Shown here piece by piece: positions 1 to 64,000 of a stretch of DNA of 64,000 nt. The stretch lies in NCBI GenBank assembly GCA_965178125.1, contig OZ237744.1:620001-684000 (forward strand), written 5' to 3'. Made by a program: the position numbers and the translations under genes. How positions within the stretch are numbered: the first letter of the stretch is position 1; each line of letters opens with the position of its first letter. Source of the stretch: Bilabrum cf. latius. Its lineage: Eukaryota. The notes below the pieces were generated by a model. That model was not told the origin of the DNA. It worked only from the letters and a program-made list of their open reading frames with translations, and searched no databases.

Positions 1-3000
1 GCCAGTCGTGCACGGACAAACTTCGCTGCGTCTGCGGCACATTGCACAAGCTGCTGGATAGCCTCTACGGATCCCATCTTCCCGCTGTCGTACGACGAGG
101 CATGTCTGTCAAGAAGAACGGGTGAATGCCGTGTCATCTGGCTTGCTGGAGCCATAGATCCCGCCAGCTGGATAGACTTGAGGATTGCAACGCCAGCAGA
201 TCCTTCGTTCGGATGGAGCATGACCTCTTGGATGAGCTGAACGGGGCCGTGGTCAGCGCCCGGCCATGGGAGGTTCGACACAGACACGCACTGCGGCAAT
301 GTTAGGCCAGCCTGGGCCAAGCCGACCCAGTTCACAGTGCGTCGAATTGATACAGCTGTTGCTACAGCAAAGGACGCACCAGTCAGCACACGCACATTAC
401 TAACACGTCCGCGGACCAGGCCACCAACCGCATAGCCATCTGGATCGATCGATCTCGACAGATCCACTGCCACTGACAAGGCTTCATGCGAAGCAAAAGG
501 CTAAACAGAGTCTTTCCAAGCAGTCCTTTCTTCCACTGTTGCATTTGATGGAGCCATTCTCTATAGAAGCTCATACCCTGATGCGGCTTGCACATCTGCG
601 GCGCGCAGCCAACTCGAGCCTGCAGCCGGAATTGGCGATGAGATCGTCACCCCCGGAAGTTGCAGGGGATCCTCCATCCCACCCGATTGCTCCAGCTGTA
701 GCTTCTGTAGCCAATTGCTTCTGCTCGAAATAGTCCAACTCGACACGATGCAGGTGGGCGGGCGATGCCGGCGCACTGACACCACAGCCTCATCGACTGC
801 TGTCTCGCCAGCAGCCGCTCGGCCAAACAGCTCTTCCGACAGCACTTGCTGCATCCTTACGCGCATCGTGTAGGTGACACCGTACACCATACCAGTGAGG
901 CTCGTGGAGACTTCGTCGACGCTTTCAATGGTTGCTGCTTGAAGTGCGTCAGCGCTGCTCTGCGACGTCTCGCCAGCCTCCGGGAACGCCCTAGTCACCT
1001 CCCAAGCCGTGTTCAGCATGTCTAACGGGACGAGAGCGATGCTTCCAGCGGCGCTAATTGACACTTCCGCACTGGTTGACACGGGATGCGCCACCCTGGC
1101 TTTCGCGGCGAGCGGGTCACCCACGTGCACAGATGCTGCCCGCTCAAGGCCATCGATGTCGCGAGCAACAAGACGCATCCTCAGTGCGAAGGGTTTGGCG
1201 GCCTGTGAAGAGCTCGCAGGCTTGTTCCCAGGGACGTATGCCTCCACAAAGGCCGCTGCAGCACCCATCGACTTCGATGGAATCGCATCGCCGTCTGAGG
1301 AGATCGGCGGCACAGGCCCAGGGCAGCCACGGATGCTTTGTCCCGGCTCAGGTCCGGTCTCACCGGCATGCAGAAGAGCCTCCACCCGTTCAGGTCTCAG
1401 CGGAATGCATGGCAGTTGCGAGTCGTCAGGGGAAATGAAAAGTGGCATGATCTCAAAATCTTGGACGGACTGTCCCTGAAGGTCCCACTCCCACCAAACG
1501 GCCTCGATGTCGGAATCAGGGTCAATGGTGCTGGACCCATCCAAGACGTACGCTCGCACTGCTCCACGAGAGTTTCGAACAAGTTCGGGCGATTCCATGG
1601 ATCTTTCTTGCTCTCTTCCAATCATAGCAGGTACACTAGATTGGAGAGCATCAAGATGCGCGGCAAACGCAGGCGGTACGGTGGCATTGGCGCACGTCAT
1701 ATTGGCTGGCACCAGCCCGCTCTGTGTTGAAACACCTTGGCAAAGGTACAGCCATTCACTCATGCCGTCCAAGGACCGGTCTTCAGTGCCAATCCTTGCG
1801 TGGAAGCCAGACGTGCCAGTGCTGTCTCCAGTCTCAGGAATCATTGGATCTGCTTCCACAACAATCTATCCGGATGAAGGGTCGATTTCGAACATTCCAC
1901 GGGGATAAACGGACCTGCTGGCTGAAGGCACAGGGGGCCATGCAATCCGCACAGACACAAACTTGTCATCAAAGCTACCCAACTCGTCATACACCCTCCC
2001 CTACAGCGAGAATCGAGGCCTTCCAAACCAGGGGACAGAGTGAAGATCCAGCAACGATACACCAGGACTGGCAAAGCGACCACCCGTTGCGCGCTACACG
2101 GCTGGTTCATCTACAATTGCGTTCGACCTGCGCTCATTCCCGATTCCGGCTGAAACGGTCACCTGGTCAAAGAAGCCAACAGAGCCCGCATTGAGAGAAA
2201 CGTGCCTCTGTACAGCGAGCCTCCATGCGTCTGTGAGACTCATGGTATCCCAGTCAGGCAGAGCGACTGGAACGTTTCGCAAGATTTGCGTAGCAGATGT
2301 TGAGTTTGAGGTTTCATTCTTGAATGACTCGCCAGCCGCTACTATACTCGTCGCAGCGGTGGAGTTAAGCCATGGCCTAGTCGCGTTGGGGCTCCAATAC
2401 AGACTGCAGTTGATTCCAATCTCTGCTGCATGACTCATCAGAATGCGGTCGACAGCAGATGCATTTGCAGATGAATTATTAAGCCGATGCCACAGACTGG
2501 CGCATATGCTGGCGTTCCTTTCCCAGTTCGAAATCCAGTTCTGCGCATCGGCAGTGATGCCGTCTCGGCGGCTCAATTCTTCCAAGGCAGCTACGTTCAC
2601 CCCGAAGCCCGGATGCCAAAGCATGGAGAGGCCTGTCAAGCGCAACGCCTCAACAACGGCGAGATCGTGCCAGTGTGATTGCACCGTAGCGTTGAATTCA
2701 GCAGTGCTTCCATTGCACAAATCGATCAAGGGCTCGCTGTCATTGCCGCGGATCAGCTGCTGTGCAGAGCTCAGAAGGCCGTCTCGGATGGACCACACCC
2801 CAGGCAACGTGCATGAATTCGACGAGTTTCCAAGAACCACCATCAGCGCTCGCTCAAGCGCAGCCTCATCCGGCAGAGCGCCCAGCAATTCAGTGCGTCG
2901 GGCTACCCAAGCATACTCGAAGATCTCGCCATCTCTATCAACCGACTTCTACAAGTCTAGCATGCTGACAGCAGAGGCATTAGCGGCCAGGCCATCTGGA

Positions 3001-6000
3001 GAGTCGTAGGCCTGCCCCCTCGATCGATCAGCAGTCTGTTCTGCTTCAAGGCTGCCCGCAATGATGCGGGTCAAGTCAACCGGGGCCACATCTCTCGACC
3101 AGCGCGTGCGTGAAAGCTCCGAGTACTGGCGTGCAGCGTGCTAAACAGCCGTTTCTAAGAAGCCGGGAAGGCTGTCTTCTTGTTGCACCCTATGCTCAGT
3201 TAGCATTGAAATGCCTTGAAGGCTGGTAGCTCCACCGCGTCGGGTCCGAGCAGCGGTGGCAGCTAGAATTGCGTCTGCCGCCACGACATACTCGTTTGAA
3301 GGAATGACCTCAGAAGGCAAAGACAACGGGGCTTCTCGAAGCAGACCAGCTCCAGCTCGATACAGGCCGCTCGAAGCATCACTGCCATTCAAGATGTTTG
3401 ACGCCCTGGCTTCAACAGCAAGTAGCGACGACGCAGCGTCGCCGAACGCAACTGCTATGGGTTTTTGGTTGTAGGCCATTCCAAACTGCGTGAGATGGCA
3501 CAGGTGCACAGAGTAGAGCTTCTTCTCGAAATCGATTCGCTCCCACTGTGGATCACACGTCTCCCGTGCGTGGATCCACTTCTCCTCCTCTGTATCCCAC
3601 AGGTGCAGCGCTGGGGCCCAGTCCTTGGCATCCGGCGCCTCCTCGACGGACGGGTCGTCATCTTGCTGTAGGCGGTCAAGCAGCGAGCCAACATCGTAGG
3701 CAAACGAGAGCACGATGGGTTTGTCGAACTGAAATCCTTCGATCTCCGAGCCGTTGCTGTCCTTCATCTTGATTGTAAATGAGTACCCGTCAAACTTCAA
3801 GTTGTTGCGTGGGGCTGTGGTCTTCAAGGGGTCCACCACATCCGGGTCTGACTCAACTTCATCTTCGTCGATCACACCGGCTTCAATCTTGCTTCCTGGT
3901 GGCGCTTGCACTGCGCCAGGCGGAATGACGATGCCTCCCGTTGTGGCGGGGGCACTGCTTCCATCTTCCCCATCCTGGCACTCGCCACTGGTGCAAACCA
4001 TGTCAAAGCCCATGGCCGTCGTCTCAGTGTCCGAAGGAACCATTTCATTCTTACCGAGTGTCATTCCATCGGTCCAGAAGGGTGCCGAAACGAGACCTGC
4101 ATGGTTCCAGGCCCTCAGCACCATTGCAATTCGGTCGCCTCGCTTGAGGCCTTCGAGGTTCAAATTCGCCATAAATCCGTTGTCTTCACAGCAGGACTAT
4201 TGACCCAGAACCGACGGATCGCTGGCAACGGGGTTGGCCTAGCGTGCTTCACCGACCCCGCCTTCACTGAGCAAGCGGTTGCCGGCATCTTCAAATCGCA
4301 CGACCCAATCCTCGTCTGTGATATTGCCAAGTGCAGACTCCCACAAGCTTGCGATTCGAGCCCTTTCATCTGGGTGCATTGATACTATGGCCGCCTCGTG
4401 CCCAAAACTCCATGTCCCTGATTCGTTGGAAGTGACGTTTGGGTTGGCGGGGGCCTACCACGAACTATTCAGCCCCACCGCTTCACTAGCGTTGCGAAGG
4501 ATGTTCATTGCCTCCCCATCGATGCGAATGACACCAAATTCGATAGAAGACACGCCACTTTCCCCGTCATCGGTTCGCCAGTTGCCAAAGTAGGCGTCTA
4601 TGAATGATGCCGTGTCAATGTCCGGACCACCGAAGCCATCGTGTGCCCAAAGAATACGAGGCGGAGTGGAGTCTGTCGCAAAGCCATCAGAGGATACCAG
4701 CGTCACAAGACCAGCAAAGTTAACAGCTGCAACACACGTGTAGTAATACTGCCCATCTTCCAGTGCAACATCAAAGCCAAACGAGGTGTTCATGCCAGCG
4801 TATTGCAAAGGAACAATGTCGAAGTCCGAGGAAATATCAAAACTAGTGGCCTCCAAGTCTCGCCAGACCTCAGGAAGCTAAGGTGACTGCGGACCAAAGT
4901 TAGATTCAGTTGTAATTACCCCACTTTCTTCATCCAAGCTTTGCTATACGTCTCGGGTAGAATCAGCATCGCTGCCCTCATTTGCCTCAGCAAACTCGGT
5001 GTCGCCTTCGTATCGAACAATCCAGCCTGCATTGCGCCATGACCTAGCTTCAGCTCTCGACTGGGGTACTGTTCGATGCAGTTGGTCATCGCACGGTCGA
5101 GTGGCAAGCCCAACAAGGTAGGCAGCGACTTGCGATTCATCGTCCCTGAACGGTGGCCATGCCACTCGGAGTCCGGAGTCAAGCCGCGCAGTTCCGTCCG
5201 CATCTTCGTCTTCCGCACTACCTCCCAAGTCTATAATTGGACCAGTTGGAACAGGAGGCGTGTCATCTACCAGGAACTCGTCGCTTGGTCTCTCGAGGTA
5301 CGCACCGGACGATGTAATGCCACGAACTTGCAGCACGTACGTGGCACCGTTCTACATGGTCAAGTTCGTCCGAGTAGTCTCAAAAGCCGCTTGTCCAGCC
5401 CCATGGTGACCAGTACCACCAACACTTGCGGAAGAAGGCCGACCAGCGCACTCATCACCCTCCGTACAGGCAGAGCACTAGGTTGACAGGCCCCCATGTG
5501 ATCGCAGCAGGGTAGCAAAACCATCATACTCACTGTTCAATGTCGCCCAGTCGGACGGTGGCAGCAGAGCGCTAGTCTACCCGAAGGACACCTCTGACTC
5601 AAAATCAACATCTGTGGCGTTTAAGGTTGCATTGATGCCACCTACTCGGTCTACAAACCCGCACGGTGCGCAGAAGTACGGCACAGCTGGCCAAACGGAA
5701 TCCGCTTTTCTTGAACGCCGCACCTGGTCTCTACTACAGTGTGCGGTAAAATGCACTCTGCCTCGACCTTCAGCCTTGGAACGGGCGTATTCGAGGCTGC
5801 GAAGCAAGGTACTGTCCACAAGGGACTGCTCGCTGAGCGTAGCAACGCCATCGCCGAGCTGAGCTGCCACTGCAGCAACAACATCAGAACCCGCGTTGAA
5901 GTCGTCATGCGATGTGCCACGCCAACTGCCCACAGCCGGGGCAGTTGAGACACCCTGCAGTACTCCGGTAGGAGATACATCAACTGTTGCCGCGCTGTGC

Positions 6001-9000
6001 GCCACTAACAGCTGCTGGATTGCACTGGGATGCCAGATGGTATCATTTGGCTAGACTGGCAGCACTGGTTGGGACGGCTGTCCCTCACCAGGAATGCTGC
6101 CTGGATCGGACCCTCCTGACTGCCGGGAGTCTGCCTGCAGCTTCGACCTCTGAGCTTGGAGGCCAGAATAGCTCCCGGCGGGGTGCGAAGAAGGCAGCAG
6201 TCGGCCGACGACATGGCAGGGCGGTGCGTCCTCGTCTACCCCGGATCCCAAGAATCCAGCTGGCTGAACCGCAAGAACCGTTATCAAGCTAGCACGCTCT
6301 GCAAAGTCGAAATGTCCAGACTCTTCGTGTGATACGTTAAATAGCAGGCTCGGAACAACCTGCTCCGTGACGAACACTAGCGCCTCAGCAGATTCAGATG
6401 GGTCCCTTGCTACGGGAGACTGCACCTGGCTATACTGCTCAAGGCCTGCGTCTCGCAGCGAACGCATTGTGTGCAGATAGGCGTGGGAGCTCGATCCTGC
6501 CCTGTCTCTGCTGCTACGCAGCTTGAGCACATCCATGGTGGCCCCTGCCGCACCACCCACTTCCACGCCAGCGTAGTGGCACCTCAACTCCGGCTTGTCT
6601 TGGGAGTCATGGCCGTACACGTACACCCGGCCTTCCATAGCATCTCCACCAAATGGATTACTCACTGCAAGAATATCGTCTCTGCCAGCTATTGCCGCAC
6701 CGAAGCCAACTCGCTGCAGTATTGACACTTCATCACCAGTGGCCCGGACCCCTAGGCTACCCGGAGCTACATTGGAAACATCGGGTTCGACCAAGCGGGC
6801 TACGACGGATACCCTTGGAATCTGGTCACGACCGGTTTCCGCACAGCTGCTAGCAGCAAATGAAACATAGTTAGAGAAAGAGCCGTTATGCACGGCATGG
6901 TCAGCGGCTGCATAGACCGGTCCATCGTCACGACAAACTGTACCGGACTCGAGGCTGCTTGACAGCACAGTCACATGTCCCTGAACGAGACTTTCCTTAT
7001 CCACGAGACGAAGCGACGTCTTTCTTCTACCAGTTGCGGCCAGCATTGACGCTACAGCAGAGATGCCGTCATGCAGCACGATCGAGGTGGCGACTGCCAG
7101 CTGGTAGGTTGCCTTCCCCTCAAAACTTCTACTGGAGAGCACAGAGGTCGATGCACCGAATCGAGGCTCAATCAGCCGACTCGTCGTATTGCTCCACAGA
7201 GACGAACCAGAATTCATGGCAGAACCAGCCGGTAGAGACTCTTGCATGTGAACACAGCTCCCATTGGTCCATGCGGCCCTGTGCAGTGCGCCAGGATGAG
7301 TGTGCGGGCCCACAACGCTAGAAACGGGAGCTGGCATGCACAGCTCAACAGCGCCAGGCACAAGCAGAACGTTGCGGCCGTTCGTGGCGTCACTGGACAG
7401 AATAGCTTGATCAGCAGCTCCTGACCACGCAAACATGCCAAGGGCATCGTCGATCCTGTGCCCCACAGCCAGTGACCACGGGAAAGCAGCTTCAGGCAGC
7501 ACAGCAGCTGCGGCAGCCGCCGACCCGACCCATGCACTAGAGTAGCTTACTGAGGCAGAGCTTGCCACAGCATTGCTTGAAACTTGAACGTGCAGTGCTG
7601 GGGCGGCCATGCTGCTGTTTCGCAGCTAAATCCGGCCAGTAGCCTTGCGCGCTCGCAGCAAATCGAAAGACACCTCAGCATGAGGTAGCGTACTCGAGGA
7701 TCCACGCGCACGCGCCTCCAGTAGAGCAGCTGCCCCCTCTTCCGTGGCTGCGAGCAGCAGTGCAGGCATTGCAATCGTGTCATGACTCGATCGATATCTA
7801 GATCCTGAAACTCTGCCACCGCAGGCAAGCCTGGCAGTCTGCGCACTTGCGATCCGGCCAGGCGACGAAGCAACGGAGACTATCGTTCCAATAGAGCTAA
7901 TGCGACCAGTATCATTTGAAGCGAGCTCAACTGAAGCCGCTGGAACGTCGCTGCGATGGAGTGGAAGTAGCTGCAGCTCGCCATGACTCCCAACGGCGGC
8001 ATAAAGCACCGCGGGCACTGCAAGATCTCCGTGAGAAGACAACTTCGAGGCAGCCATCAAGATGAGGTCGTTGCGAATGGGCTGAAGCAAGCTTCTGGTT
8101 CGTGACCCTGCCAACCAATCAGACCCAGCCTCTGAAACGTCAACTACAAATGTACCGGTTGACTCGATGGCGGTAGCAAGACGACAAGCTGCCGCCGATG
8201 GGGCTTGTCCACCATCAAATGCATCACTAAAATCCCAACTAATGGAGACGGCGCCTCCATGACCAAAGCCTCTGCTCGTCGAAATCCCAGTGCGGCCAGA
8301 CCTTGCCGGTGCCAGTGCAACATCCTCGGTGCCATCCCAGACGTCCCTCGCTCCTGGCATGCCTTGCACAGGTAAGAAGCCGTCACTGCAGCAAGGACCA
8401 CTTGATGGCACAAACTCAGATACAGTTTTGAAGCCAAAGCGCTTGAACTCGAACTCACCCTAGAGCGGCTCATTGCTTGGTCCAGATACAACAGACTCCG
8501 GGATTTCCACAACAACAGAGCCGTTAGAATCCAACCCATTCGCACCCACCTCATCAAATTCAACTTCTGTTGAGTTGTTTGACACCGTGGACGAGTCATT
8601 GCCAGGCTGCGTCTTGTTGTCGTCGTTCTTGGCAGAGTGCACATCAATCATGTACATGACGGTCGAAGCCGCAGTCGCGCGGAACTCTGGCGGCTCGGCG
8701 TCGTCAGGTCCCGAGTCGAGGGTGCTTGCGATATCACCGAAGCCTTGCAGCTCTGGACAAATAAGGGCTTGCAACTCGCTACCTGGTTGCAGCGAAGCTG
8801 GATCTAAAATGTGCATGAGCTAGGCGGTGACATCTTGAGTCGAAGCGATGATTGCAGAAGGTCCGTCACTCTCCGCGTTGGACGATGGGTTCTAGCTCCC
8901 GGTAGACTCCTCGACTACGCCCTCAGCCGGAAGGTCGTCTTGCGAGGCTTGCTAATCGAAAGAGTCTGTCGATCCTCTAGCTCCTTGCAACAGCTCTTCA

Positions 9001-12000
9001 AAATTTACTCCACTTCTGTTGAAGGCGACTTCCACCTTCGCAAATATCTGATCGCGGCGCTGCACTTCGACGATTCGAACTCGTCCGAAGCATGGCAGCC
9101 CACCGCCCTCGACGACTACTCCATCACTGACCGCCTCTGACATACCGCCTGCCTTGTTCCACACACGAACCGCACACGCATAAACCTCACCACGATTCAA
9201 GTCAAGTCCACCAAAAGTGACAGTTGCCAGTCCCAGCGAGTCCGTCCAGTCGGCCACAACCTCACCACCCCACCAGTTGGCTGCTGGCGACAAGGCACCG
9301 TTTGAAGTAGCTGAAGCAACAACACTTCCATCTATTGGGTCTGCAGGACGATCCGTGGGTAGCTCGGATGACGTTGCATTGCCATCCGCGTCCACTTCAA
9401 AGGTTGGCCTGTTGGATGCCAAGTCCTCAAACTGTCTACTGCCTCCAAACCGGTCGCTGGAAGAGACCAAGCGCACAACAGAAAATTGCGCAGTGTCGAG
9501 ACCGGATTCATCGTCAGACCAGCCCGAAAGGCCGCACTGGATCGTGTTCAATGATGCAGTAAAATCAACATCCGAGGCTAGCGGTATAGACCCCGGGTGG
9601 CCGCGTAGTCTAGCAAGATCCCATGAGCTGTATAGACCAGCCTTCAGCGTAGGAGCATCGTCTTCATCTGAAGCGTCCTCACCGGGCCTTTCAAATGTCG
9701 AGTTCAAAGTGCTATTCTAGTCTCGGACTGGCGAGCCTCGAGTACTGCTGTTTCCTTCAAACTTGGTGGTCTGGACAGCATCCAGGGTAAGGACGCCTCT
9801 GGGATCGATGGTGCTGTTGTTCGACAATACCGCATCAGCTGCGCCCTGTCCTTCTTCAACGACGAGGTCATCACCAGGCAGCAGGTCTAGCACACCGCTA
9901 CCGAAGCCACTGTGAACCCTAGGCGGCGATGAGTCAACAACCAGACGTCCAGAGAATACTGTTCGATTCAGGCCAGCTTTGTTGGCTGCAATGACCGTAG
10001 CATACAGACTGGTACCGTCCGTAATGTTTAAGTCCGCAACCCAAACATAGAACGCGAGAGGTTGGGGTGGCTGGACGGTTTCGCTGGCGCGGTTTTGCAG
10101 CGATTCAGCAATCTAGTCAGCCAGCGACTGGTTCGTACCCGATAGCTGCGTTTCTTCTTGCACTCGAGGTGTTAGAGCAGCTTCAGCGTAAATTTGGAGC
10201 GGCAGAATATCATCGCCGCCTTCGACGGTACCAACGGAAACGAAGAACCGCAAGGGTGGCACTGTGAGGTCTCGCCCTTGCAGCTGCGGGCTGCTGACAA
10301 GATTGTCTTCGAAGGCGCCAACGTCTGCTATGGACTCTGGGTCAAAGAAGGACAAAAACTTGAATGCCACTTGCGTGCTTGATCTCTAGTACTGCACAGG
10401 CTGCAGCAATCCGAGCTCTCTGACCTGATCCTCTGTCAAGGCAACTTGCACTGCAGTGCTGGCTGACGTGTCGTTCTGGCCTGCGCTTGATCCTTCAAGC
10501 AGTACATCCGGAGCTACGTCATCAAGTGATAGCCCATCCACCTGCAAAAATTCTACCAAGCCGCCTTCAGGTGGGGAGTCGTCAAGACGACCACTGACAC
10601 CTCGAGTCATCTCCACACCAGCGCCGTTGACGAGGCCCATGGTGACGTGGAATACAAAACCAATCTCTGGGGGAAGCCCAGCTGCGTGTCGAGCTCGCAC
10701 TCGATCGTGACGTGCCGCTCGGGCAGCTCCGAACCGGAACAGCGAAGCAAGTGTATCGTCAGGGGTCAGAGACCTGGTCACAAGGCTTGCGTTGTCAAAA
10801 ACCGGCTGAGCGTCGCCGATAGAGTCCAACAAGCTGACCTAACCAACAGCCAAAACGTTGGCTGGTAACTGCTAGCATGGCAGAAGGTCACTGCCGCCGA
10901 CCTCAGACCCAACACACCACCAGGCCTTCTTGATGCCAGACTCAGGGTCACTTACTCCCTGCCAATGAAATGATAAGTCGGACCATCGGCCCAACCAGGC
11001 ATTTGTCTTGAGTACTTGCACGACCGGTGGACTTGGGTCGGCAACAAAACCCGGAGAGCGGGCCTCACACCACATGTTGCCTTGATCAAACCCACGGACA
11101 TGTGCCTGGTAGGTGATTCCTGGCCGCAAGGAGAGGCCACCAGCCCCCCCATCAGAACTATCACCGGCATCAGTCCACCCGAGAGGACATTCGGTTCCAG
11201 CAACGTTACACACCCGGAAATAGTACCTCGAAATCGATGTGTCTGCATCTGTCCAACCACCACCGTGCCATGCAACGCTCGAAGCATCTCGTGTGAAAGC
11301 AATCCCGCTGCTGCGAGCAGATGAAGTGAGCTGCCTGACTCCATCCCGGACCCAGGCATTCTCGCAATTCGGCGGGTCAACGTCAACCACAACTCCGTCA
11401 GATGCGAATCGGACTACGCGACCGGCACCATTCTCCACCCAAATTGAAGCAAAATACCGACCCCGAGCCTGCAGTGGCAGCCGGGTAAATGTCACATTGC
11501 CGGTAGGATCAGCGATGGCAGCCTCAGAGGAAAGTTCTGGCTATCCAGAAATGACGTGCTTGGCGACGACATCATCAGCGAACGGCTGTCGGCCAAGAGC
11601 CATCCAAATGCGAATCACACCACTCTCCGCATCTACAATGTCAGACCAAGCCACCGCGAGCTGCTGCTGATCGAACGTCACGGCGAGGTCAACAGGGACG
11701 CCCTGATCATCGAACACACGAGTCGTGGCCCCAGCGATGTCGGAGCGCGACGCTGGGGGCTGCGAAGGCAAGCGTGCTGCTACAGAATCCCCACTCGGCA
11801 GTGTCACGTTTTCTACTTTCGCAGGCAGGGCGTTTGCAGATGCGTTAAGGAGCTGAACTGCCGGATCGCTGCCAGCTGCTGACGCAACTCCACCTGGCCC
11901 TCCAGGGGCAGCAACATCTGCGAGGACACCAATCTGCGGAGGGGATAGGTCGAGTTGAGATGCATCGGAGCAGTCGAATAGCGACCGTCCAGCCCTGTTG

Positions 12001-38300: not shown

Positions 38301-39306
38301 AGCCCTACCTGTTGACCCCGCTCTTGAGGGCATGTGCGCCGCGGCGACTGGCGACCTGCAGCCGTTCCAGCCCGCCAAGATGGAGCTGAAGCAGAAGGAG
38401 GGTGGGGGCGAAGAGCTGGTCGAGGTCGACGACGAAAAAGCCACGGCCCAAGAACTCGCAGAAGCGAAGGCTCGCCTCGTCGCCAGGTTCGGGGACGGCA
38501 CGGAGGGAGCAGAGGCCCCGAGCAGTGCCGCCCGCGGTGCCGTGTCGAGCAAGATTGTTCCGGCCGAGTTCGAAAAGGACGACGACTCCAACCACCACAT
38601 CGACTACTGCACGGCTGCCTCCAACCTCCGGGCTGCCAACTACAGGATTCCACAGGCGCCCCGGCACGAGGTGAAGCGCATTGCGGGTCGGATCACCCCG
38701 GCAGTCGCGACGGCCACGTGCTCCATCACCGGCCTCGTCTGCCTCGAGCTACTCAAGCTCGTGCAGGGCGGCATCGTGCCCAAGTGCAGGTACCGCCAGG
38801 GCGCCATTAACCTGGGCAAGATCGGTGGGCAGCTCTCCGAGCCCGGGGCGCCCAAGCGCACGAAGAGTGTCGAGATGGACCCCACGCTGTTCATGCCGAT
38901 CCGGGCGGTGCCGGAGGGTTTCACTACTTGGGACAGGATCGTGATCAACAAGGACGACGTGGCAGCTAAGGGTGACCTCACCTTCCAGGAATTCCTGGAT
39001 GCGGTGTCTGCAGAGCTGCCAGAGGGCGTGTCGGCTTCTGAGATCGTAGCTGGAGGCATGATCTTGCACAGCCCCGCCATGTTCGCCGCCCACAAGGAGA
39101 ACCTGCCCAAGCCTCTGTACGCGCGCTGGGCGCAGCGCGATCCTGACAGCGCCAAGATGCTCGGAGATCGGCCGTACCTCGTCCTGTCGGTGCAGGCCGA
39201 AGACAGCGAGGCGACCGAGTGCCACATCCCGGTAGTGCAGTACTACTTCAGAGACCCTGCGAGCCAGGGAGCGGCTGGAGGGGCAGCCACTGGTGGAGGG
39301 CAGTAA
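35325..39306 (+). CDS. UBA1: Ubiquitin-activating enzyme E1 (UBA1-like), ~1,221 aa; exons 35325-35428, 35631-35781, 35896-39306; one in-frame TAG at 36550-36552
   Basis: DLYSRQIGVYG, GLGVEIAKNIVLAG, GDRYD, VGAGALGCELLKNFAL, DMDRIENSNLNRQFLFR, catalytic PLCTLKNFP (Cys at 37765-37767), FEKDDDSNHHID, and a C-terminal ubiquitin-fold region. GT-AG introns 35429-35630 and 35782-35895 restore the E1 alignment. Ends in TAA. Confidence 0.95.
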
Positions 39307-39699
39307 ATCATGCAAACAGAACTTCTATGAAGTTTGAGCTCCAAATTCGTCTCCTACAATTCTTCTACTTCTTCTACATCAGTATTTACCAACAGAATAC
39401 ACCGGGACCCAAAATATCTTGTTATTTAAATAGTAATGTGTAGTTTAGAAAGAATGGGCGTTTCGGTCTCTTGGAGAAATCACAGCATAAAATGGGGACC
39501 AATGGGCCATATATTGACAGACGTATGATCGTACAATCCTTGTGTTGCGTCATCCTTGTGATGTCATTGGTTGTATAGTCTCGTGAGGCCCTGGTGTCCC
39601 AAGAACACCGTTTGGCATCTTCAGCGTTCGCCTGTTGGGCTACCAGAATTGACTGATTCAACAGCACGGCGCACTCCTACGATTAAATTGTTGTGGATT

Positions 39700-54362: not shown

Positions 54363-55709
54363 TCAAGCCACTCCGGCAGACGTGGCGCAGGCCACCAGTG
54401 AGGCGAGCACAAGCGCGCCGGCTCCGACTCGAGCAGAGGCGAGGGCACCGTCGTCGTCTCCGCCGGCAGTGTCATCATTTACCACATCGTCGTCTCCACC
54501 AGCAGTGTCATCATTTACCACGTCGTCATCGTCGCTACCGCTGCAGCAGGTCGCCGCGGAGGTGTAGTCGAAGTTCTCACCGGCCTGGGTCTTGGGTAGG
54601 AACGTCACCGACATTGCCTTGCCGAAGGTGTCGCGCACAGCGGATGGGAGGGGGATTTCCGTGCGGTCTCCACCGCGCTGGTCGGGGGTGAACATGATGC
54701 GACCAGCCGGTACCCCGCTGCTCCCCGACTCTGATGAGGGCAGAGTGATCCAGAAGTACCGCTGGTCCGGGTCGTAGGCGAGCCCGGGACGATCGGCCTC
54801 CTGGATCTGCAGGCCTGTGACCAGTGCATTGAGGCTGGACACGCCGGGAAGCTGGAAGGACTGAACGGCGCCCTCTGCCCCGCCGTTGCGGTACCTGTGC
54901 TCGAAGAAGAATCCCCCCGATCGATCCCCGTTGAGCACGATCCCGTCGGGCCACCAGTCCTGCGACTGGCTGTACGAGAACTCGACAGTTGCGTTCGAGC
55001 CGGCCGTGGCGTTCCCGCTCATGATGCCTTGTACGCGAGTGGTGGTTGTTGTGGTAGAGTTGCCGTTGGTCGAGAAGTAGATCGTTCCGGCGTTGCTTGC
55101 GTCCTGGGGCGACGAAGACGCATTCTTTGGCAGGAACGAGATGCCATTGGGCCCGCCCGTCACCGGAGCGTCACCGAACATCGACACGGTCTGGCCCTGA
55201 CCACTTTGTGAGATGCGGAGCACGCCACCCTGCTGCTGGTCCTCGCCAAGGTTAGAATTACCTTGCGTAACGAACACGTACTGGCCAGCACCATCTGCGG
55301 TGATCCTTCGAAGGTCAGCCCCGGCGGAACTCAGGGTCGCGATTGCAGTGCCGCACTGTGAAGGTTCAGGACTGCCCACATTTACACGGATCACCTTGTT
55401 GCTGCCAACAATGGCGAACAGTGCCTCAGCCGACGTGTCGAATGCCAAATTAAGTACATTTGCACCGCACGTGGCGATTGTAGTGTACGAAAGCCCGTCT
55501 GCAAAGCACAATGCGTAAATAAATTAAGTATACAACATTAATTACAGATATTAAAGGCCGTGGTTTACTCGTAGAGGTCAGAGGTCCGCTACGAACAACG
55601 TACCTGTGGTCGTTGCTATCCTCCCTTGATTACCACCAAACGCCACCATGGCATTCCGGGCACACGCCAGTGCTGACAAGGTCCCGATGACAGCGCACGC
55701 GGTTTTCAT
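54363..55709 (-). CDS. Secreted, probably GPI-anchored surface protein with a beta-propeller-like region and acidic stalk; exons 55709-55604 and 55498-54363
   Basis: Exon 1 MKTACAVIGTLSALACARNAMVAFGG is signal-peptide-like. A GT-AG intron at 55499-55603 joins it in frame to DGLSY. Repeated GxxxD/PxGI-type blade motifs (GPNGISF, WPDGIVL, RPGLAYDP), an Asp-rich repeat, and a hydrophobic C-terminus GALASARVGAGALVLASLVACATSAGVA. Ends in TGA. Confidence 0.75.
54451..54522. repeat. 36-bp coding tandem repeat (2 near-identical copies) encoding DDDVVNDDTAGG
   Basis: tcgtcgtctccgccggcagtgtcatcatttaccaca followed by tcgtcgtctccaccagcagtgtcatcatttaccacg. Confidence 0.85.
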
Positions 55710-55827: not shown

Positions 55828-57798
55828 ATGGCCTATACTGTTTCAATATGTATGTGGTCTGCACTGATGGCCTCATTCACCCTGAGCGTTGCCAGTGGTG
55901 GCGCCCCTCCCAAATCTTCGAGGCAGGATCCACCCATTGTTCTAGACTTTAAGGCTATGCGCAGGAGAGCATAGAGCGGCACAGAAGAAGTAGTAACGGC
56001 AGTAGATAATCCCGGTCTACATTTTGTATGTTCCATCCCTGAGCTGGGTGTGTCGTGTGGCGTTTGTGCCACATCGTCGCAGCAGCCAGTCTTGCTGTTC
56101 AATCTGTCCAAGACGCAGAGTCACATGCCAATTACACTAATTAAATAGTCTGATGATAGAACAAAGCTATTTGCAGCGGACCTGTGCTCAAACCATGGCT
56201 GGGATGCGGCCAGGACAGTGCAAGACGGTTTGGAAGCTGCCGTGTAGCCGGACGATAGGTAGCATTTGAATCTCTCCTAGTGCACAGAACCCGCGCCGAA
56301 TGCGAAGCCGCCCGGTCTGGTTTATTTTGACGGTGACAGTGGAGGCGGTCTCTTCAACCCCAGGCCAGATTCTGCCGCCGGCGGACTGCCGGCTTCGCTC
56401 GCGGCCCCGAGAGCTGCGTGCTACTGCCATCCCGACAACGGGGGAGAGTGCGCCCCTTTGCTCCCCGTATTAGGATCGTTAGAAGGACAAGGGAGAGTCT
56501 ATCGGCCAGATATGTATTCAAGGGGCAGGGGATCCACCACAGAGGCAGACGATCCTGCGGGCGGCGGCGGCACCCCAGCCGCTGACCAGGTTCCCGAAGG
56601 TTCGCTGACGTGGTCCGGTGTGGATGTGCTGAGTATCGACGTGGGAAGAGGAGATGCAGGGCAGGGTGGAGAGGCGGGGGACGTCCATCAGGAGGAAGTT
56701 GCGGTGTTCAGCTTTGGATCTCCCGCCATGGGCTGGGACGGCGGTGACTGGACACAGGCGGGGGTTCTTGTGCCGGGCTTGGGAGACGGCTCTTCGCGGG
56801 AAAATCAGGGCTGCTTCGGAAGGTCGGGAGTCACCGGCCGCTGCGCCATAGTGATGGTGCTGTCGTGCGATCACGATGCCTTCGAAGAGGTCGAGGACGA
56901 TGCGAGAGACAATCAAGAAGAAGAAGGGACCAGCAAGGTGGTTCGCCTCGACCTAGAGAGGCCTCCCAGAGTATCCGACAGCATTCGAGACAGGAACACG
57001 CGGGATGCCTGCGCTCTCGTCCTGGAGCGAATGGGCTTCAATATCAATTCGGACGTGCAGTCAATCTGCCTGCGCGTGTTTGCAGCTGAGGCGTGCTTGT
57101 ACTAGCCATGTCCCAACGCCTGCAGCGCCCACGGCCAGTGCTTGCCCGACGGCTCTTGTAGCTGCGACTAGGGCTGGGCTTCGGCCGACTGTTCCTCTGA
57201 AGCCACTTGCATGGAGCAAGGCGGCTGCAGCGAGTTTGCAGCCTGCAGGTGGCAGATGGGGGAGACCGGTGAAGGGCAGGATGGCGGTGGCGGAGATGGC
57301 GAGGATGGGCCTGCAGTCAGGCCAACTGCAGTGTGCACATGCAGGGGCGGGTATCGCGGGAACGGCTAGGAATGTTCGTCGGATCCTAGGAGCGGGTTCG
57401 CGGGACCCAGCAATGGGGGTGGGGCCGAGGGTGAGGTGGTGGTGCTGTTCGTGCTGGTTGCGGTGCTGTGTGTTTCTGTAGGCACTGCGTTGATGTGCAT
57501 CTTGCTGCGGCCCTGGATCGCGGCAAGGTGTCCCGCGTGCGGCAAGTTGCTGGCTCGGTGCCTGGGCGACGGGCCAGGCAATGCTAGCACATTGCGGGCT
57601 CGGAGGGAGCTGGCGCAGCTGCGCGGCAGGACCGGAGCTCATGGCGAGATGGAAGGGACGGGCATTGAGCTAGAGAGTGACAGCGATGGTGGCACTGGTG
57701 TCGAAGGGGGGCAAGGGGCTGCGGCCGATGCAGCTGATGTCGACAATATGGTGCTGGCCGATCATCATGATCCTGGTCGAGCAGCGACGGCCGTGTGA
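55828..57798 (+). CDS. Type I membrane protein with two EGF-like domains (~656 aa); 8 in-frame TAG codons
   Basis: ATG 55828 gives MAYTVSICMWSALMASFTLSVASG (signal-peptide-like). One frame runs to TGA at 57796 with only TAG interruptions (55972, 56146, 56245, 56260, 56278, 57103, 57169, 57367). EGF-like CPNACSAHGQCLPDGSCSCD*GWASADCS and CTCRGGYRGNG*EC; TM segment VVVLFVLVAVLCVSVGTALMCILL. Confidence 0.8.
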
Positions 57799-58001: not shown

Positions 58002-59695
58002 TCAGTTCATGAATCCCGACCCGCTCACAGCGATCGCAAGGATGGTTTCCTTGCAGGCAGAGAAGACGCGCTCCACGTTCTTGGTGTCCCTGCGGTGTAC
58101 GAGAGTGTACGAGAGTGTGCGCGAGGTAGGCTAGGTGCTTGCAATGGTAGCAGTAGGCGCTGCCGGCGGGGCGAGCGTACATTGATTGAGCGCGCGTTGC
58201 CGACTGGGACCGTCTCTCACGTGGCGCATGTGACATAGGGGTACACCTTGCGCGCCCCGTCCTCGGCGATGTCAGTGAACTGATGCTCCATGTACTCCTG
58301 GGCCCCCTTGAGCGTTTCCTCCTTTTCTTCCTCGCTCATGTCCTCGCTGAGCATGCCCCCATCGTAGTCAACGAACCTTCCGTCTTCTTCGTCCTCGTCG
58401 TCTCCTTCGGGCAGCTGCTTGATGTCAACCTTGTACAGCTTCTCCTCGAACAGGTCCTTTTTGTTCAGGAACAGGATGAACGACGTTGACTCGAGGAAGA
58501 ACGAAGACGAATACAACTCGGAGAACAGGCGAACCGCCTCATCAACTCTGCGTGACAGAGCATCGAGTAGGGTGCAAGCACGGTAATGGCGTTGGATTGG
58601 CTGCAACTGCTGGTGCTCGGGTATGCATGTCCGAGGCGCAGGCCGACCAGAGGCAGGCCATTCACAGCCATGCACCCAACTAACCTGTTTGTGACTCCAT
58701 CCTCGAACAGGACCTGGTCGTACTCGCTGATTGCTGCCACAAATATGACCGCGGTGACCTGAGTTCAGAAAGAGGGGCCGCAATCGAGGGAAGCAATGCA
58801 AGTGCCCCCCGGATTACAAGACAAAGGTGCAGCTGCAGGCACAAGAGTACTTTGCTCACATTGTCGAAGCAGTTGATCCACTTCTTGCGCTCATTCCTCT
58901 GCGGGCACACAAAAAGAAGCAGGCGGATGAGATTCTTGGACGGGCGTTCTTGCAGCATTGCAATCCAATGGTCGGTGCAGCGCGTGACGCAGCAATGTCT
59001 CACCTGCCCACCGACATCATACATTTCAAATGGGGTGCCTTCGATATTGTACTGCTCATTCACAATCCCGCTAGTACGCACGCGAGACGCCAGAATGTCG
59101 CTGACGGAAGGGATGTACGACGGCTTCGTGACTTCCTCAGCCTTGCTCAGGAAGCGCTTGGTGCAATCATTAAGCTGGAACGACGCCCTCTTTTCGAAGG
59201 TGGCCTGGATGCCCGGGTCCTCCCAAAGTGCTTTGACAGCAGCGCCGTCGTCCTCATCGAGTTCTCGCTCGGGGTCGAAGCCCTTGGCGCGCTCTGCTGC
59301 CTCAGTTGCCTCGATTTCGTGGCCAAGGATTCCGGCCTGGTCAATCAATACTTGCACTGAAGTAACGATGTTGCCGTGTATAATGCCTCGCGACGCCGCC
59401 CGATCGGCTTCGCCAAATCCACTCCCGTACAGAATCCTCATTTGCTTGAAGATAGTCGACTTCCCGCTGCGCGAAATTAAATTGGACGCAGCTATTAAGT
59501 GCGGTTGAAATAGGATACCGCGCGACGCTGTGCAATACCACTAGCCTGGCCCCTGCGAAAGACATTTTCTCACGATTCGCCAGCGCCCAGCAATAGCAGC
59601 TTCACCTTCTACTCCTCTTTCTTGTGCTCCTCATCCAACTACTTTTCGAGCTCATATGCAAGCTGTGCCGCTTCGGAGCTCCCGCACAAACCCAT
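58002..59695 (-). CDS. Heterotrimeric G-protein alpha subunit (~370 aa); exons 59695-59574, 59466-59004, 58898-58860, 58758-58685, 58547-58221, 58089-58002; two in-frame TAG codons in exon 1
   Basis: MGLCGS lipidation motif; G1 KLLLLGAGESGKST; G2 RVRTSGI; G3 DVGGQRNERKKW; G4 FLNKKDLF; G5 TCATDT. Five GT-AG introns of 101-137 nt with consistent phases. Ends in TGA. Confidence 0.95.
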
Positions 59696-59845
59696 GTTTC
59701 ACGGTGTGTGTTGCGGAGTCCCAGCCGCCGAATCGTGCGACCAAGAAGCACGCCACTGCGATCGCAGCGGAACCAAGATTTTCTGGCGCCACGCACTGGT
59801 TTGGATCGCCCACAAAGACGCATCAGCTCACGGATTGCTGCACAG
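59696..59845. promoter_or_regulatory. 150-bp divergent intergenic region (probable bidirectional promoter)
   Basis: Separates the G-alpha ATG at 59695 (-) from the amidase-like ATG at 59846 (+). Confidence 0.5.
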
Positions 59846-61871
59846 ATGGCTTCTGTTGGGGGCGGTGGCGAGCTGTAGAAGACATATGAGCGAAAGATCC
59901 GTGGCCACTCTCTCGTGGATGCCCACGCTCGATTCGGCGACAAGCGCTTGACCGCAAAAGACTTGCTCACGATTCTTACAGCACACCGTGACGCGCATGC
60001 CGACTCTCTAAACTGCCTCACGTCCATTGAGGATTCTGATACTATCATGTAGGTTCAGCCTTGATCCCGAATGGTGCCCTTGCATGCCTTGGGGCACTTC
60101 AATGCGTTGCTGGCAGTGGGTCCGTTGGGTAGCCCGGTCCTTGAGTGCCTTCTGCTGCAAATAATAATCGTAATTGTTTAAATGTGAATTCATTCATTTT
60201 CGCCTTCTTCATCTCGCAGCGAGAGTGGGGCTCAAGCCGACGAGGAGCGCCTGGCGGGCAAAGGGAAGCCACTCGGCGGAATCCCGTTCGTTGTCGGCGA
60301 TACCCTGAACACTAGCGACACGGTAACGTCAGCTGGGACTGAGTTTTTGGATGAGTGGGTGCCGAGTGACACTTCCCCCAGCGTATTGGCCCTTCAGGCA
60401 GCAGGCGCAGTGCGTATCGGCAAGTCAAACGTGGATTCCCTGGGTGAGGCTGAGGTTAATGTATCATGCTGACTTGCCACGCCAAACTTAGCGTGGCTTT
60501 AGCTGAGGCAATAAGTAGCATTGCGTGTCGGTGCCGTCAACGCAGCGCCGCATGGTTCGCCCATGCCTTTTCGCCCGTCGCAGGACACAACAACGGCGGC
60601 TCGTCCGTCCGATTTGGTGTGACGATTAATCCTTACAGCCCAGCCCATGGTACCGGTGGAACGAACGGTGGCGCTTCCGCGGCAGTGGCAGCTCGTATCG
60701 CGATGTTTGGCCTGGTCACAGACACGGACGGCTCAACCATGGCCCCAGCTGCCCTGTGCGGCACGGTGGCCTACCGACCTACGCCCGGCCGGTACCTCGC
60801 TGCCGGTGCCATTCCACGCTCCATCAGCTTCGATGGCATGGCCGTGGTGGCACGAACCACGTAGGACGCCCGCATCGTAGACGCCGTGCTCTCCGCTGCA
60901 GGCACCGCGGGAGCGGAAGACGCGGAAGAGGCTGCAGCTCAGGTAGACTGGCGACCGTACGTGGAGGAGGTGCACATAAAGGACGCCTCTTCTGCCTCTG
61001 CGACCGGGGAACGAGCCAAACCCGACATCAAGGGCGTGAAGGTTGGCGTGATCAAGTCGTTTGGCGCAGACGCGAAGGACTCTGCAGCGACTGGATTTGC
61101 GAGCTTCCTGCGCGCGGCAGGGTCGGGCGGTGCGACTTTGGTGGAGGACGTGCCAGTGGACGACGTGAACGGGATGGCACTGCCAGATGTGGCCAAACAG
61201 GTCATGGGTAGGGTGTGCACGTACGAACAGGCCCGCGAGCTAAGCCTGTACTTTTACAGGAGAGGTGCACGCACGAGCGCGCTGGACGTCGCAGAGCACT
61301 TGGAGGAGGATGGGATCAGGGGCAAGCTGGTGAGCCAGCTGACGGGGGAGGAGGGCATCGACGGCGTGGTCTCGTTCGAACAGTACCGCGAGGACATCTC
61401 AAAGAACATCCCTGCCATCAAGGCAGCCGTCATGAAGGCCTTTGAGGACGCTGGAACTGGCCTTCTGTGCTGCATTGCTACCCCCGATGGGACTGCTGCT
61501 GCCCTCCCTGGTGATGCGGGCAAGGGCATCACAGGGGCCGCTTCCATGGCTTCGCATGCGTCCGTGTTTGTCATCGTGAGTTGTGTCGCGCGTGCTATTT
61601 CGCGCATTGCTCCCTGTTGCTGCATGGGGACTGCCGCTGTTCTGCCGTACGATTTCCAGCGATTCCCCCACCTGCGCTGTCGTTTCGTATCTTATCGCAG
61701 GCTGGCTGCCCCGTGGTCTCCATCCCCTTCAGCAAGCTGAACGGCGGCAAGACCCCCTCGGGCGCGCTCCTGGTGGGGCAGCCCGGCAGCGACGGCGAGC
61801 TCCTGAAGGCGGCGCACGGCTTGCAATCGCATGCAGGATTCCCCGTGGGACCCAGCAAGTTTGTCAAGTGA
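59846..61871 (+). CDS. Amidase-signature (AS) family protein with degenerate catalytic triad (~529 aa); exons 59846-60048, 60220-60443, 60584-61575, 61701-61871; in-frame TAG at 59876 and 60862
   Basis: PLGGIPFVVGDTLNT, LQAAGAVRIGKSN, FGVTINPY, GGTNGGASAAVAA, VTDTDGSTMAPAALCGTVAYRPTPGR, ART, and C-terminal AGCPVVSIP...PSGALLVG...DGELL follow the AS-family order. GT-AG introns have consistent phases. Ends in TGA. Confidence 0.85.
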
Positions 61872-62149: not shown

Positions 62150-63508
62150 TCAAAGCTCCTCCGCTCTCGATTGTCTAGTGCCAGAGCCCCCATCGGTACC
62201 CTTGGATTGCACGTCTGCAAGCCTCCTGGCCATCTCCCTGGTGATGTCGAGGTACCCACGAGGCCCCAAATCGCCGTAGTCCTTGAAAGTTTTTGAGGTT
62301 CCCAGTCCTCGCCGCATATCCTCGGGTATGCCCTTGCCATCCGGCACGGTCCACGGCACAGCGGGCTCGATCTGCGTGCCCTCTCCCCACTCGTTGAACG
62401 TCGAGACCCCCACCGATGCTGGCGGGATGGGAAGACCCAGAGCCGCCTCCCACATCCCTCGGTAGTACTGCCCTCCATTCCTTCTCCTTACGTTCGCTTT
62501 GTTCCACGGTCGGATCCTCGAATCGTCGTACCCAGGAGCCACAGAGGGCATGAAGAGCAGCCCCAGCTGGCCAGCCTCCTCCGCCATCGTGGGCCACCGA
62601 CCGGGAGTGGAGCCGTAGCTGAACCCCGCCGCTCCAAAATACGTGTAGCCGCCGTCAAATCCGCCTGCTCGCAAGTCTTTTCCGCTTGTTCTCTCTAGCC
62701 AGAGACCGATCGCAACCACGTCACGGTCCGTGCCTCTGATGCTGCTGACGGCACCTTCTGCTTCCACTATACCGGCGTGCGTATCGGGCGCCTCTGAATC
62801 TCCCAGCAGCAGTTTCCACTCCTTTGCTGTGATGTGATACGAATCAAACACGTACACTACTGGACCACAGTGTCCTGTTCGCGTGCCGCTAGCTGACGCG
62901 CACCGTGATGCTGTCGATGGCTCGCGCTGCCATTGCTGAACGCCTGCATCGGAGCGATACAATTTGCACCACAGCATAGCCGGATGATTTGCATACTTTG
63001 CGTTCACGTACTCCAGATCTGCCTTTATTGAATGGATGGACCGGTTCCTATACGGCTCCATGTGCAGCGAGACCATGATACCTTCCGCTGCAGCATCATC
63101 CATCAGCTCAAGTAAAAAGCCATCAGAGTTAACCCCTTGCGTATCATGCGTACCTTCAACATCGGGACGCCCCCACCACGACACTACAGCGGTAGTTATC
63201 CCAGCATCTGCCATTTGACGGAAGTGCAACCGCCTAGAGGTCGCACTCTGAGAGCTATACAGGCCAAGCTACGGATAAAACGGAGAGTGAGGATCTTCTG
63301 GAGGGCTATACTATCCCTTTGGGTACTATTCTGTGACAGATGAGACCCAGTGAGGTAACACCTCGTGGTCCCAATGCAGCCACTTTTCGTTAATGTCCGG
63401 GTTTCCGTACCAAACGTAGTAAAACGCATGAACTCCCGTACAACGGTCGAGTACAGGAGGTGATGCAATCGCTGGAATGGCAAATATTACTGCCACGAGA
63501 ACCTCCAT
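62150..63508 (-). CDS. Glycoside hydrolase family 99 endo-alpha-1,2-mannosidase/mannanase (MANEA-like), ~452 aa; in-frame TAG at 63326, 63311, 63269
   Basis: ORFs 63326..63508 and 62150..63229 are in one frame. VHAFYYVWYGNP, HWDHEVLPHW, PFYP*LGLYSS, LHMEPY, GGFDGGYTYF, FMPSVAPGYDDSRIRPWN and the catalytic motif STFNEWGEGTQIEP match GH99. Hydrophobic N-terminus. Ends RAEEL-TGA. Confidence 0.93.
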
Positions 63509-63999: not shown

Positions 64000-64000
64000 T

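What the first reader, a model, noticed from the sequence alone, without database searches (positions are those of the whole stretch)
1..63508. Non-standard nuclear genetic code: TAG is a sense codon while TAA and TGA remain stops
Seen in sequence: seven of the eight genes carry in-frame TAG with the frame and motifs continuing, including UBA1 (36550), G-alpha (59639, 59609), GH99 (63326, 63311, 63269), the amidase-like gene (59876, 60862) and dozens of sites in the two giants. I found no in-frame TAA/TGA inside any gene, and all seven true ends are TGA or TAA. Established knowledge: eukaryotic UAA and UAG are nearly always reassigned together. Codes that uncouple them are rare (e.g. UAG=Gln in the fornicate Iotanema spirale; the layout of NCBI table 15). 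Inference: this may be an independent, possibly undescribed UAG-only reassignment, which would need an eRF1 that distinguishes UAA from UAG and a tRNA with a CUA anticodon.
Basis: partly seen in the sequence, partly recalled or inferred. Interest (0 to 1): 0.97.

Follow-up and report, generated by a model that had tools for sequence, protein, structure and literature searches.

The report
UAG read as glutamine, nuclear genes
This stretch of eukaryotic nuclear DNA comes from an organism that reads the stop codon TAG as an amino acid, almost certainly glutamine, while TAA and TGA still end genes; this rare kind of genetic code is already known from a few other protists.

Summary
With TAG read through, the window holds an open frame of 11,687 codons (91 TAG, 0 TAA, 0 TGA) and one of 4,877 codons (42 TAG), plus UBA1, a G-alpha, a GH99 mannosidase, an amidase-like gene and an EGF protein with in-frame TAG. 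All 7 gene ends seen are TGA (6) or TAA (1). Spliced, polyadenylated contigs from two other studies match the DNA with no differing letter across 40 of 43 in-frame TAG sites, so neither editing nor assembly error explains it. The amino acid is glutamine. In 12 ortholog comparisons (a 94%-identical relative and a 74%-identical metagenome UBA1 that also carries in-frame TAG), TAG pairs with Gln 9 times and with Lys, Glu and Arg once each. Gln beats the next residue by 34.6 log-likelihood units. This is the UAG=Gln, UAA/UGA=stop layout already described for Iotanema spirale and some ciliates. This genome differs: 57% GC, long multigene contig, mostly TGA stops. The organism could not be named. 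No tRNA(CUA) or eRF1 could be examined because no genome is held. Verdict: a genuine UAG-to-Gln code, probably a new member of a known kind.

The parts
3..34904 (-). Giant gene A. An intron-free open frame of 11,634 or more codons from the first ATG (34904), running off the window start. It has 87 in-frame TAG downstream of the ATG (91 in the whole open frame 3..35063), 0 TAA and 0 TGA. About 29 FN3-like repeats.
35524..39306 (+). UBA1 (ubiquitin-activating enzyme E1) open frame. One TAG lies in the coding part at 36550-36552. It ends in TAA at 39304-39306. There is probably an in-frame intron near the 5' end, and the first exon(s) may lie upstream.
39700..54195 (+). Giant gene B. It has 4,831 codons from the ATG, 42 in-frame TAG, and ends in TGA. 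It contains Cys-rich Ephrin_rec_like/EGF modules and about 19 FN3-like repeats. One 14,462-nt RNA-derived contig covers it.
54363..55709 (-). Secreted or membrane protein gene with no Pfam family. It has one intron (55499-55603), no TAG in the coding sequence, and ends in TGA. A poly-T loose end at 54204 marks the poly(A) site.
55828..57798 (+). EGF-domain membrane protein gene. It has 8 in-frame TAG downstream of the likely ATG and ends in TGA. An unspliced RNA-derived contig covers 55819-57707.
58002..59695 (-). G-protein alpha subunit gene of 370 codons after removal of 5 introns. TAG lies at 59639-59641 and 59609-59611. It ends in TGA.
59843..61871 (+). Amidase-signature-family gene with 3 introns (60049-60219, 60443-60582, 61576-61700). 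TAG lies at 59876-59878 and 60862-60864. It ends in TGA.
62150..63508 (-). GH99 endo-alpha-1,2-mannosidase gene. TAG lies at 63326-63328, 63311-63313 and 63269-63271. It ends in TGA.

Best explanation
The window is nuclear DNA of a eukaryote whose cytoplasmic translation reads UAG as glutamine, while UAA and UGA remain the only terminators. This is the layout NCBI once listed as table 15. Shown here: UAG is an ordinary, rather non-preferred sense codon. It runs at about 7 per 1000 codons and makes up about 18% of Gln codons. It is frequent in weakly biased giant genes and rare in the strongly biased UBA1. It is kept in mature mRNA and swaps freely with CAG/CAA between close relatives, as a synonymous codon would. 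Inferred, not shown: decoding is done by a tRNA-Gln with anticodon CUA, one base away from tRNA-Gln(CUG), which cannot pair with UAA. The release factor eRF1 has also lost its grip on UAG but not on UAA or UGA. Decoding must be nearly complete, because a single frame with 87 UAG could not otherwise be translated to its end.
For: 1) Two frames of 11,687 and 4,877 codons hold 133 TAG and no internal TAA or TGA. Shuffles give at most 677 codons.
2) Pfam domains continue across TAG in UBA1, GH99, G-alpha and the amidase-like gene.
3) 0 of 7 gene ends in the window use TAG, nor does the related UBA1 in L001: TGA 7, TAA 1.
4) Contigs of runs X5 and X7, from two other studies, show 9 GT..AG/CT..AC joints and a poly-T end, so they are RNA-derived. 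They carry no differing letter. Their listed pieces cover 40 of 43 (X5) and 27 of 43 (X7) in-frame TAG sites of 44001-64000.
5) The metagenome contig L001 encodes a UBA1 74% identical, with 3 in-frame TAG of its own.
6) Residue identity from orthologs: 4 UBA1 comparisons give CAG x3 and CGA x1. 8 window TAG sites spanned by ORF fragments of a 94%-identical relative give Q x6, K x1 and E x1. That relative's ORFs stop exactly at 7 further window TAG sites.
7) At the GH99 site X94, the homolog column has Q in 50 of 120 sequences.
8) The summed log-likelihood puts Gln 34.6 units ahead of Arg and 40 ahead of Glu and Lys.
9) The base after TAG is distributed like that after CAG.
Against: No tRNA(CUA), eRF1 or peptide evidence is available: there is no tRNA in the window and no genome is held. 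The RNA evidence is Logan contigs, not raw reads, and contigs drop rare variants, so partial editing cannot be excluded. 3 of the 12 ortholog comparisons are not Gln (K, E, R). One ORF of the relative ends opposite a window Glu (giant B residue 4228). A test on 48 internal repeats favoured Gln only weakly (Q +2.1, T -0.4, E -2.9), and TAG sits twice at the conserved Glu of the repeat motif D-x-E-S-G. Only 8 gene ends were seen, so use of UAG as a terminator elsewhere in the genome is not excluded.
Confidence: 0.9

Rival explanations
1. [quoted passage not shown] It is read as sense inside genes but also terminates some genes near their 3' ends, as stop codons do in Condylostoma, karyorelicts or Blastocrithidia.
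For: Only 8 gene ends were examined, so TAG terminators elsewhere cannot be excluded. The literature reports such codes.
Against: 0 of 8 ends use TAG. In giant B the last TAG lies 46 codons before the real TGA. A frame with 87 TAG needs near-complete read-through at every one. The base after TAG resembles that after CAG.
Confidence: 0.06
2. UAG is a sense codon but encodes another residue: Glu, Lys or Arg, or Leu or Ser as in the rhizarian exLh or Scotinosphaera.
For: TAG sits at the conserved Glu of the repeat motif D-x-E-S-G twice. One ortholog comparison each gives K, E and R. In GH99 the X99 column is mostly Arg and X113 mostly Ala/Leu.
Against: 9 of 12 ortholog comparisons give Gln. Gln is 34.6 log units ahead of Arg, about 40 ahead of Glu and Lys, and more than 58 ahead of Leu and Ser. 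K, E and R codons lie one or two base changes from TAG or CAG and are ordinary replacements of Gln.
Confidence: 0.03
3. This is not a code change at all. It could be an assembly or sequencing error, C-to-U or U-to-C RNA editing at these sites, or decayed pseudogenes.
For: None was found. All sequence evidence is contig-level.
Against: Contigs of 4 runs from 4 studies agree letter for letter. RNA-derived spliced contigs keep TAG. Pseudogenes would also accumulate TAA and TGA, yet there are 0 in 17,797 codons. A relative 74% identical has TAG at other positions of the same gene.
Confidence: 0.01

Closest known systems
Iotanema spirale (Fornicata): UAG=Gln, UAA and UGA stops (PMC5304391, sections 7 and 9 read)
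   Same: The codon table is the same: UAG is read as Gln, there is no in-frame UAA or UGA, and UAG is never a terminator in the genes examined.
   Different: Iotanema ends 104 of 119 genes with UAA and 15 with UGA. Here the count is 6 TGA and 1 TAA. Iotanema is a gut anaerobe known from a transcriptome. Its eRF1 carries a T32G change in the GTS motif, and eRF1 could not be examined here. In the UBA1 tree the window and L001 sit on a long branch in a 16-row set that includes Cafeteria, but no fornicate was in that tree.
Ciliates with UAG=Gln only: Hartmannula sinica, Trochilia petrani, Protocruzia tuzeti (PMC11687900, abstract, introduction and discussion read)
   Same: UAG is read as Gln and UAA is kept as a stop. 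UAG is widely used inside genes.
   Different: In those ciliates 86.9-98.3% of genes end in UAA and UGA is the rarest stop. GC content in Phyllopharyngea is 27.4-53.6%. The window is 54-61% GC, ends mostly in TGA, and is part of a contig of over 200 kb with a 35-kb intron-free gene.
Rhizarian exLh and uncultivated TARA phyllopharyngeans (UAG=Leu); Scotinosphaera (UAG=Ser)
   Same: UAG alone is reassigned, and UAA and UGA are kept as stops.
   Different: The amino acid differs. Leu and Ser are more than 58 log units worse than Gln here.
UAR=Gln codes (NCBI table 6: Tetrahymena, hexamitin diplomonads, Ulvophyceae, Amoeboaphelidium)
   Same: UAG is read as Gln, and the expected agent is a tRNA-Gln(CUA).
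   Different: In those codes UAA is also Gln. Here there are 0 in-frame TAA against 130 TAG in 17,797 codons, and one gene ends in TAA.

Membership tests
UAG-only stop-codon reassignment (UAG sense; UAA and UGA stops) | In-frame UAG within conserved, expressed coding sequences | tested here: met
   There are 130 TAG in 17,797 codons. Pfam domains run across them, and spliced RNA-derived contigs keep them.
UAG-only stop-codon reassignment (UAG sense; UAA and UGA stops) | No in-frame UAA or UGA | tested here: met
   0 TAA and 0 TGA in 17,797 codons. The spliced G-alpha and amidase-like frames are also free of them.
UAG-only stop-codon reassignment (UAG sense; UAA and UGA stops) | UAG not used as a terminator | tested here: inconclusive
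   0 of 7 ends in the window and 0 of 1 in L001. This cannot be tested genome-wide because no genome is held.
UAG=Gln code (former NCBI table 15 layout) | UAG corresponds to glutamine in homologs | tested here: met
   9 of 12 ortholog comparisons give Gln. Gln is ahead by 34.6 log units.
UAG=Gln code (former NCBI table 15 layout) | Cognate tRNA-Gln with anticodon CUA | not testable with these tools
   ARAGORN finds no tRNA in the window. Rfam gives no hit. No genome is held.
UAG=Gln code (former NCBI table 15 layout) | eRF1 N-domain altered so that UAG is not recognised (GTS, NIKS, YxCxxxF motifs) | not testable with these tools
   The eRF1 gene is not in the window and no genome is held.
UAR=Gln code (NCBI table 6) | UAA also used as a sense codon | tested here: not met
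   0 in-frame TAA. UBA1 ends in TAA.
Codes with all three stops also read as sense (Condylostoma, Blastocrithidia types) | In-frame UGA and/or UAA read as sense | tested here: not met
   0 in-frame TGA or TAA.

The most novel reading that the evidence does not exclude
This is an independent, so far undescribed origin of the UAG=Gln / UAA,UGA=stop code. It sits in a GC-rich (about 57%), non-ciliate, non-Iotanema eukaryote lineage that ends genes mainly with UGA. The lineage has at least two further environmental relatives, at 94% and 74% protein identity, and the more distant one shares the code. A UAG reassignment in a GC-rich genome, where UAG should not have been rare as a stop, would argue against simple AT-driven codon capture.
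Probability: 0.45. Interest if true: 0.75.

Novelty: new member of a known kind. Interest (0 to 1): 0.62.

Why it matters
Nuclear codes that separate UAG from UAA are rare. The papers read here list only a handful of lineages. Each new case helps test how eRF1 and a CUA-anticodon tRNA can split two codons that usually change together. This case has three useful properties:
- It is GC-rich and uses mostly UGA stops, unlike the UAA-dominated known cases.
- It comes as long genomic contigs with matching RNA data.
- It has relatives at graded distances, so the turnover between TAG and CAG can be measured.

There is also a practical side. Any annotation of this assembly under the standard code will shatter most genes; relatives' proteins in public databases are already cut at TAG. 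The giant genes would be missed entirely.

Tried and rejected
- Whole genome: none is held, so no Codetta-style scan and no search for tRNA or eRF1 was possible.
- tRNA and Rfam scans of the window: nothing found.
- Earlier findings of this scan: nothing by place, words or relatives.
- UBA1 homolog column at X343: it lies in a variable, mostly gapped loop and is uninformative.
- Internal repeat profile (48 repeats, 26 TAG in match columns): only weakly favours Gln. My early lead that TAG might be Glu, from the D-x-E-S-G motif, was rejected by the ortholog data.
- PDB alignments of G-alpha and the amidase-like gene: TAG sits at variable polar positions (K/N, R, A/R), which is compatible with Gln but not decisive.
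- Naming the organism:
  - Best UBA1 hits over most of the query region are only about 41-48% identical.
  - In the UBA1 tree the window and L001 form a long branch (1.59) in a 16-row set with Cafeteria and unnamed sequences. This was a quick search of one gene, so it is not trustworthy for placement.
  - Cluster look-ups gave no names for the relatives. The Atlas gave no useful taxa. A search for the accession prefix GECG01 in papers found nothing.
- Scans of genome contigs and viral contigs with UBA1: no relative found.
- Sequencing runs: no RNA holder is listed on record. The RNA nature of X5 and X7 rests on the spliced joints and poly-T end seen.
- Coverage: X8 covers only 16 of 30 bins and X7 27 of 30. 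The uncovered parts say nothing.
- Literature searches for a described UAG-only code in another non-ciliate lineage returned only the cases named above. Supplementary files were not seen and could list further taxa.
Full report
**1. Checking the observation**

The window is 54-61% GC throughout. Under the standard stops the longest stop-to-stop frame is 917 aa. When TAG is read through, two huge frames open:
- 3..35063 on the minus strand: 11,687 codons, 91 TAG, running off the window.
- 39562..54195 on the plus strand: 4,877 codons, 42 TAG.

Giant A has 91 TAG, 0 TAA and 0 TGA in frame. Its other two frames hold 42-48 TAA and 191-442 TGA. TAG is about as common in frame (91) as out of frame (101-130).

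Over 17,797 coding codons of four genes there are 130 TAG, 0 TAA and 0 TGA. Twenty shuffles of the window never gave a TAA/TGA-free run longer than 677 codons.

Seven of the eight genes carry TAG in their coding sequence. The seven ends visible are TGA six times and TAA once.

**2. The genes**

Pfam confirms the following:
- UBA1: ThiF, SCCH, FCCH and UFD domains.
- A G-protein alpha subunit.
- A GH99 endo-alpha-mannosidase (E 1.6e-83).
- An EGF-domain protein.

The amidase-like gene matches amidase-signature enzymes in the PDB.

The two giants have almost no Pfam content apart from weak fn3 and Ephrin_rec_like matches. An iterated profile finds 48 copies of a 95-residue FN3-like repeat, 29 in A and 19 in B. 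Giant B has homologs of 2,000-6,800 aa at about 32% identity in environmental data.

**3. RNA and independent DNA**

Twenty-three runs from 14 studies hold part of the stretch. I laid four of them on 44001-64000.
- X1 is near-identical DNA and spans the whole stretch in one piece. It may be the source of the window.
- X5 and X7 come from two other studies. They show 9 joints that skip 101-171 bases with GT..AG ends on the gene's strand. X7 also has a 26-T loose end at 54204.
- These contigs are therefore spliced and polyadenylated, that is, RNA-derived, although no run is recorded as RNA.
- No run shows a single differing letter.

The listed pieces cover 40 of 43 (X5) and 27 of 43 (X7) in-frame TAG sites of that stretch. 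One X5 contig of 14,462 nt runs through giant B.

So TAG is present in mature mRNA, and editing or assembly error is not the explanation. One caveat applies: contigs hide rare variants.

The joints also gave exact gene models. The spliced G-alpha frame has 371 codons, the amidase-like frame 577. Both have two TAG each, no TAA or TGA, and end in TGA.

**4. Which amino acid**

Conserved-column evidence within the window is thin.
- The UBA1 site lies in a variable loop.
- The G-alpha and amidase sites are polar and variable.
- Of the three GH99 sites, one column is Q in 50 of 120 homologs. The other two are mostly R, or A and L.
- The internal repeats favour Gln only slightly.
- TAG sits twice at the Glu of the repeat motif D-x-E-S-G, which made me test Glu seriously.

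Orthologs decide it.

*UBA1 in L001.* A metagenome contig, L001, encodes a UBA1 74% identical to the window's. It has three in-frame TAG of its own and a TGA end. Four TAG sites can be aligned between the two genes. Three pair with CAG in the other species and one pairs with CGA.

*The close relative.* ORF fragments from a relative 94% identical (2,044 of 2,172 aligned residues) lie on one 16,835-nt contig.
- They span eight window TAG sites of giant B, giving Q six times, K once and E once.
- Seven of that relative's ORFs end exactly one residue before a window TAG. This is what a standard-code gene caller produces when TAG is conserved.
- One ORF ends opposite a window Glu (giant B residue 4228).

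*Combined result.* Using substitution frequencies taken from the same alignments, Gln is 34.6 natural-log units better than Arg. It is about 40 units better than Glu or Lys and more than 58 better than Leu or Ser.

*Codon usage.* TAG is 7.3 per 1000 codons and 18% of Gln codons. It is rare in UBA1, which has strong codon bias (CAG 31, CAA 2 in the 917 codons counted, with its single TAG just upstream of them). The base after TAG is distributed like that after CAG.

**5. Mechanism**

Shown: UAG is a fully functional sense codon for Gln. A frame with 87 UAG after its ATG can only be completed if termination at UAG is negligible.

Inferred from established knowledge, as set out in PMC5304391 section 9:
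- A tRNA-Gln with anticodon CUA reads UAG but not UAA.
- eRF1 has weakened recognition of UAG.

Neither could be examined. There is no tRNA in the window, no Rfam hit, and no genome is held.

**6. Comparison with what is known**

The papers read list these nuclear codes in which UAG and UAA differ:

| Lineage | UAG read as |
|---|---|
| Rhizarian exLh | Leu |
| Iotanema spirale | Gln |
| Scotinosphaera | Ser |
| Protocruzia tuzeti, Hartmannula sinica, Trochilia petrani | Gln |
| Three TARA phyllopharyngeans | Leu |
| One ciliate | Glu (with UAA = Lys) |

The table seen here is therefore a known kind.

The window does not look like the known carriers. Iotanema ends 104 of 119 genes in UAA, and the ciliates end 87-98% of genes in UAA, with 27-54% GC. 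Here the ends are 6 TGA to 1 TAA and the DNA is about 57% GC. The window also lies in a contig of over 200 kb that includes a 35-kb intron-free gene.

In a quick single-gene UBA1 tree, the window and L001 form a long branch inside a set with Cafeteria and unnamed environmental sequences. This does not place the lineage reliably, and no fornicate or ciliate was in that tree. No tool named the organism.

Four literature searches found no described UAG-only code in another non-ciliate lineage. Supplements were closed, and papers outside the library were not searched.

**7. Verdict**

The residue is glutamine. The code is a known layout, most likely in a lineage not among the described carriers, so I rate it a new member of a known kind. 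Whether the origin is independent and undescribed needs the whole assembly and a proper phylogeny.

Noticed in passing
window 3-34904 (-) and 39700-54195 (+): Two giant intron-free genes of at least 11,634 and 4,831 codons. They are built from 29 and 19 copies of a 95-residue FN3-like repeat (consensus W.gF.DpESGi...VGtaPG..dV...VRA.N.AGL.S...SDGvvVD.TPP). Giant B also has Cys-rich Ephrin_rec_like modules. Environmental homologs of 2,000-6,800 aa exist at about 32% identity. They are probably surface or adhesion proteins.
   Followed up: partly
window about 35780-35900 (+), and L001 about 121-330: The UBA1 frame contains a stretch that matches no UBA1 homolog (VNVRNSDALIISICS...CCNS). It is probably an in-frame intron without stops. 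The related UBA1 in L001 has a similar stretch at the same place. The usual UBA1 N-terminus is missing from the frame, so an upstream exon is likely.
   Followed up: no
window 54183-54363: Two convergent genes nearly touch. Giant B ends with TGA at 54193-54195. The poly(A) site of the minus-strand gene lies at about 54204, marked by a poly-T loose end in X7.
   Followed up: no
window 35400-44000 and 44001-64000: The same DNA, with no differing letter in the pieces laid, occurs in runs filed under at least four different organism codes. Smaller shares occur in runs labelled algae metagenome and protist metagenome, 14 studies in all. The organism may be a common associate or contaminant of protist or algal cultures, so the label of the source assembly may not be this organism.
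   Followed up: no
giant B, window 39700-54195: TAG turns over quickly between the window and its 94%-identical relative. Of 15 window TAG sites that could be judged, 8 are sense codons in the relative (Q x6, K, E) and 7 coincide with the end of one of the relative's ORFs. This fits TAG being a weakly selected synonymous Gln codon.
   Followed up: partly
window 55499-61700: There are nine spliceosomal introns of 101-171 nt, 39-63% GC, with GT..AG ends. They are concentrated in the small genes: 5 in G-alpha, 3 in the amidase-like gene, and 1 in the gene at 54363-55709. The 35-kb and 14.5-kb genes have none.
   Followed up: partly
L001 841-3573: UBA1 of the window and of L001 sits on a very long stem branch (1.59 changes per column) relative to all 42 other eukaryotic UBA1 sequences in the tree. 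This points to a fast-evolving lineage.
   Followed up: no
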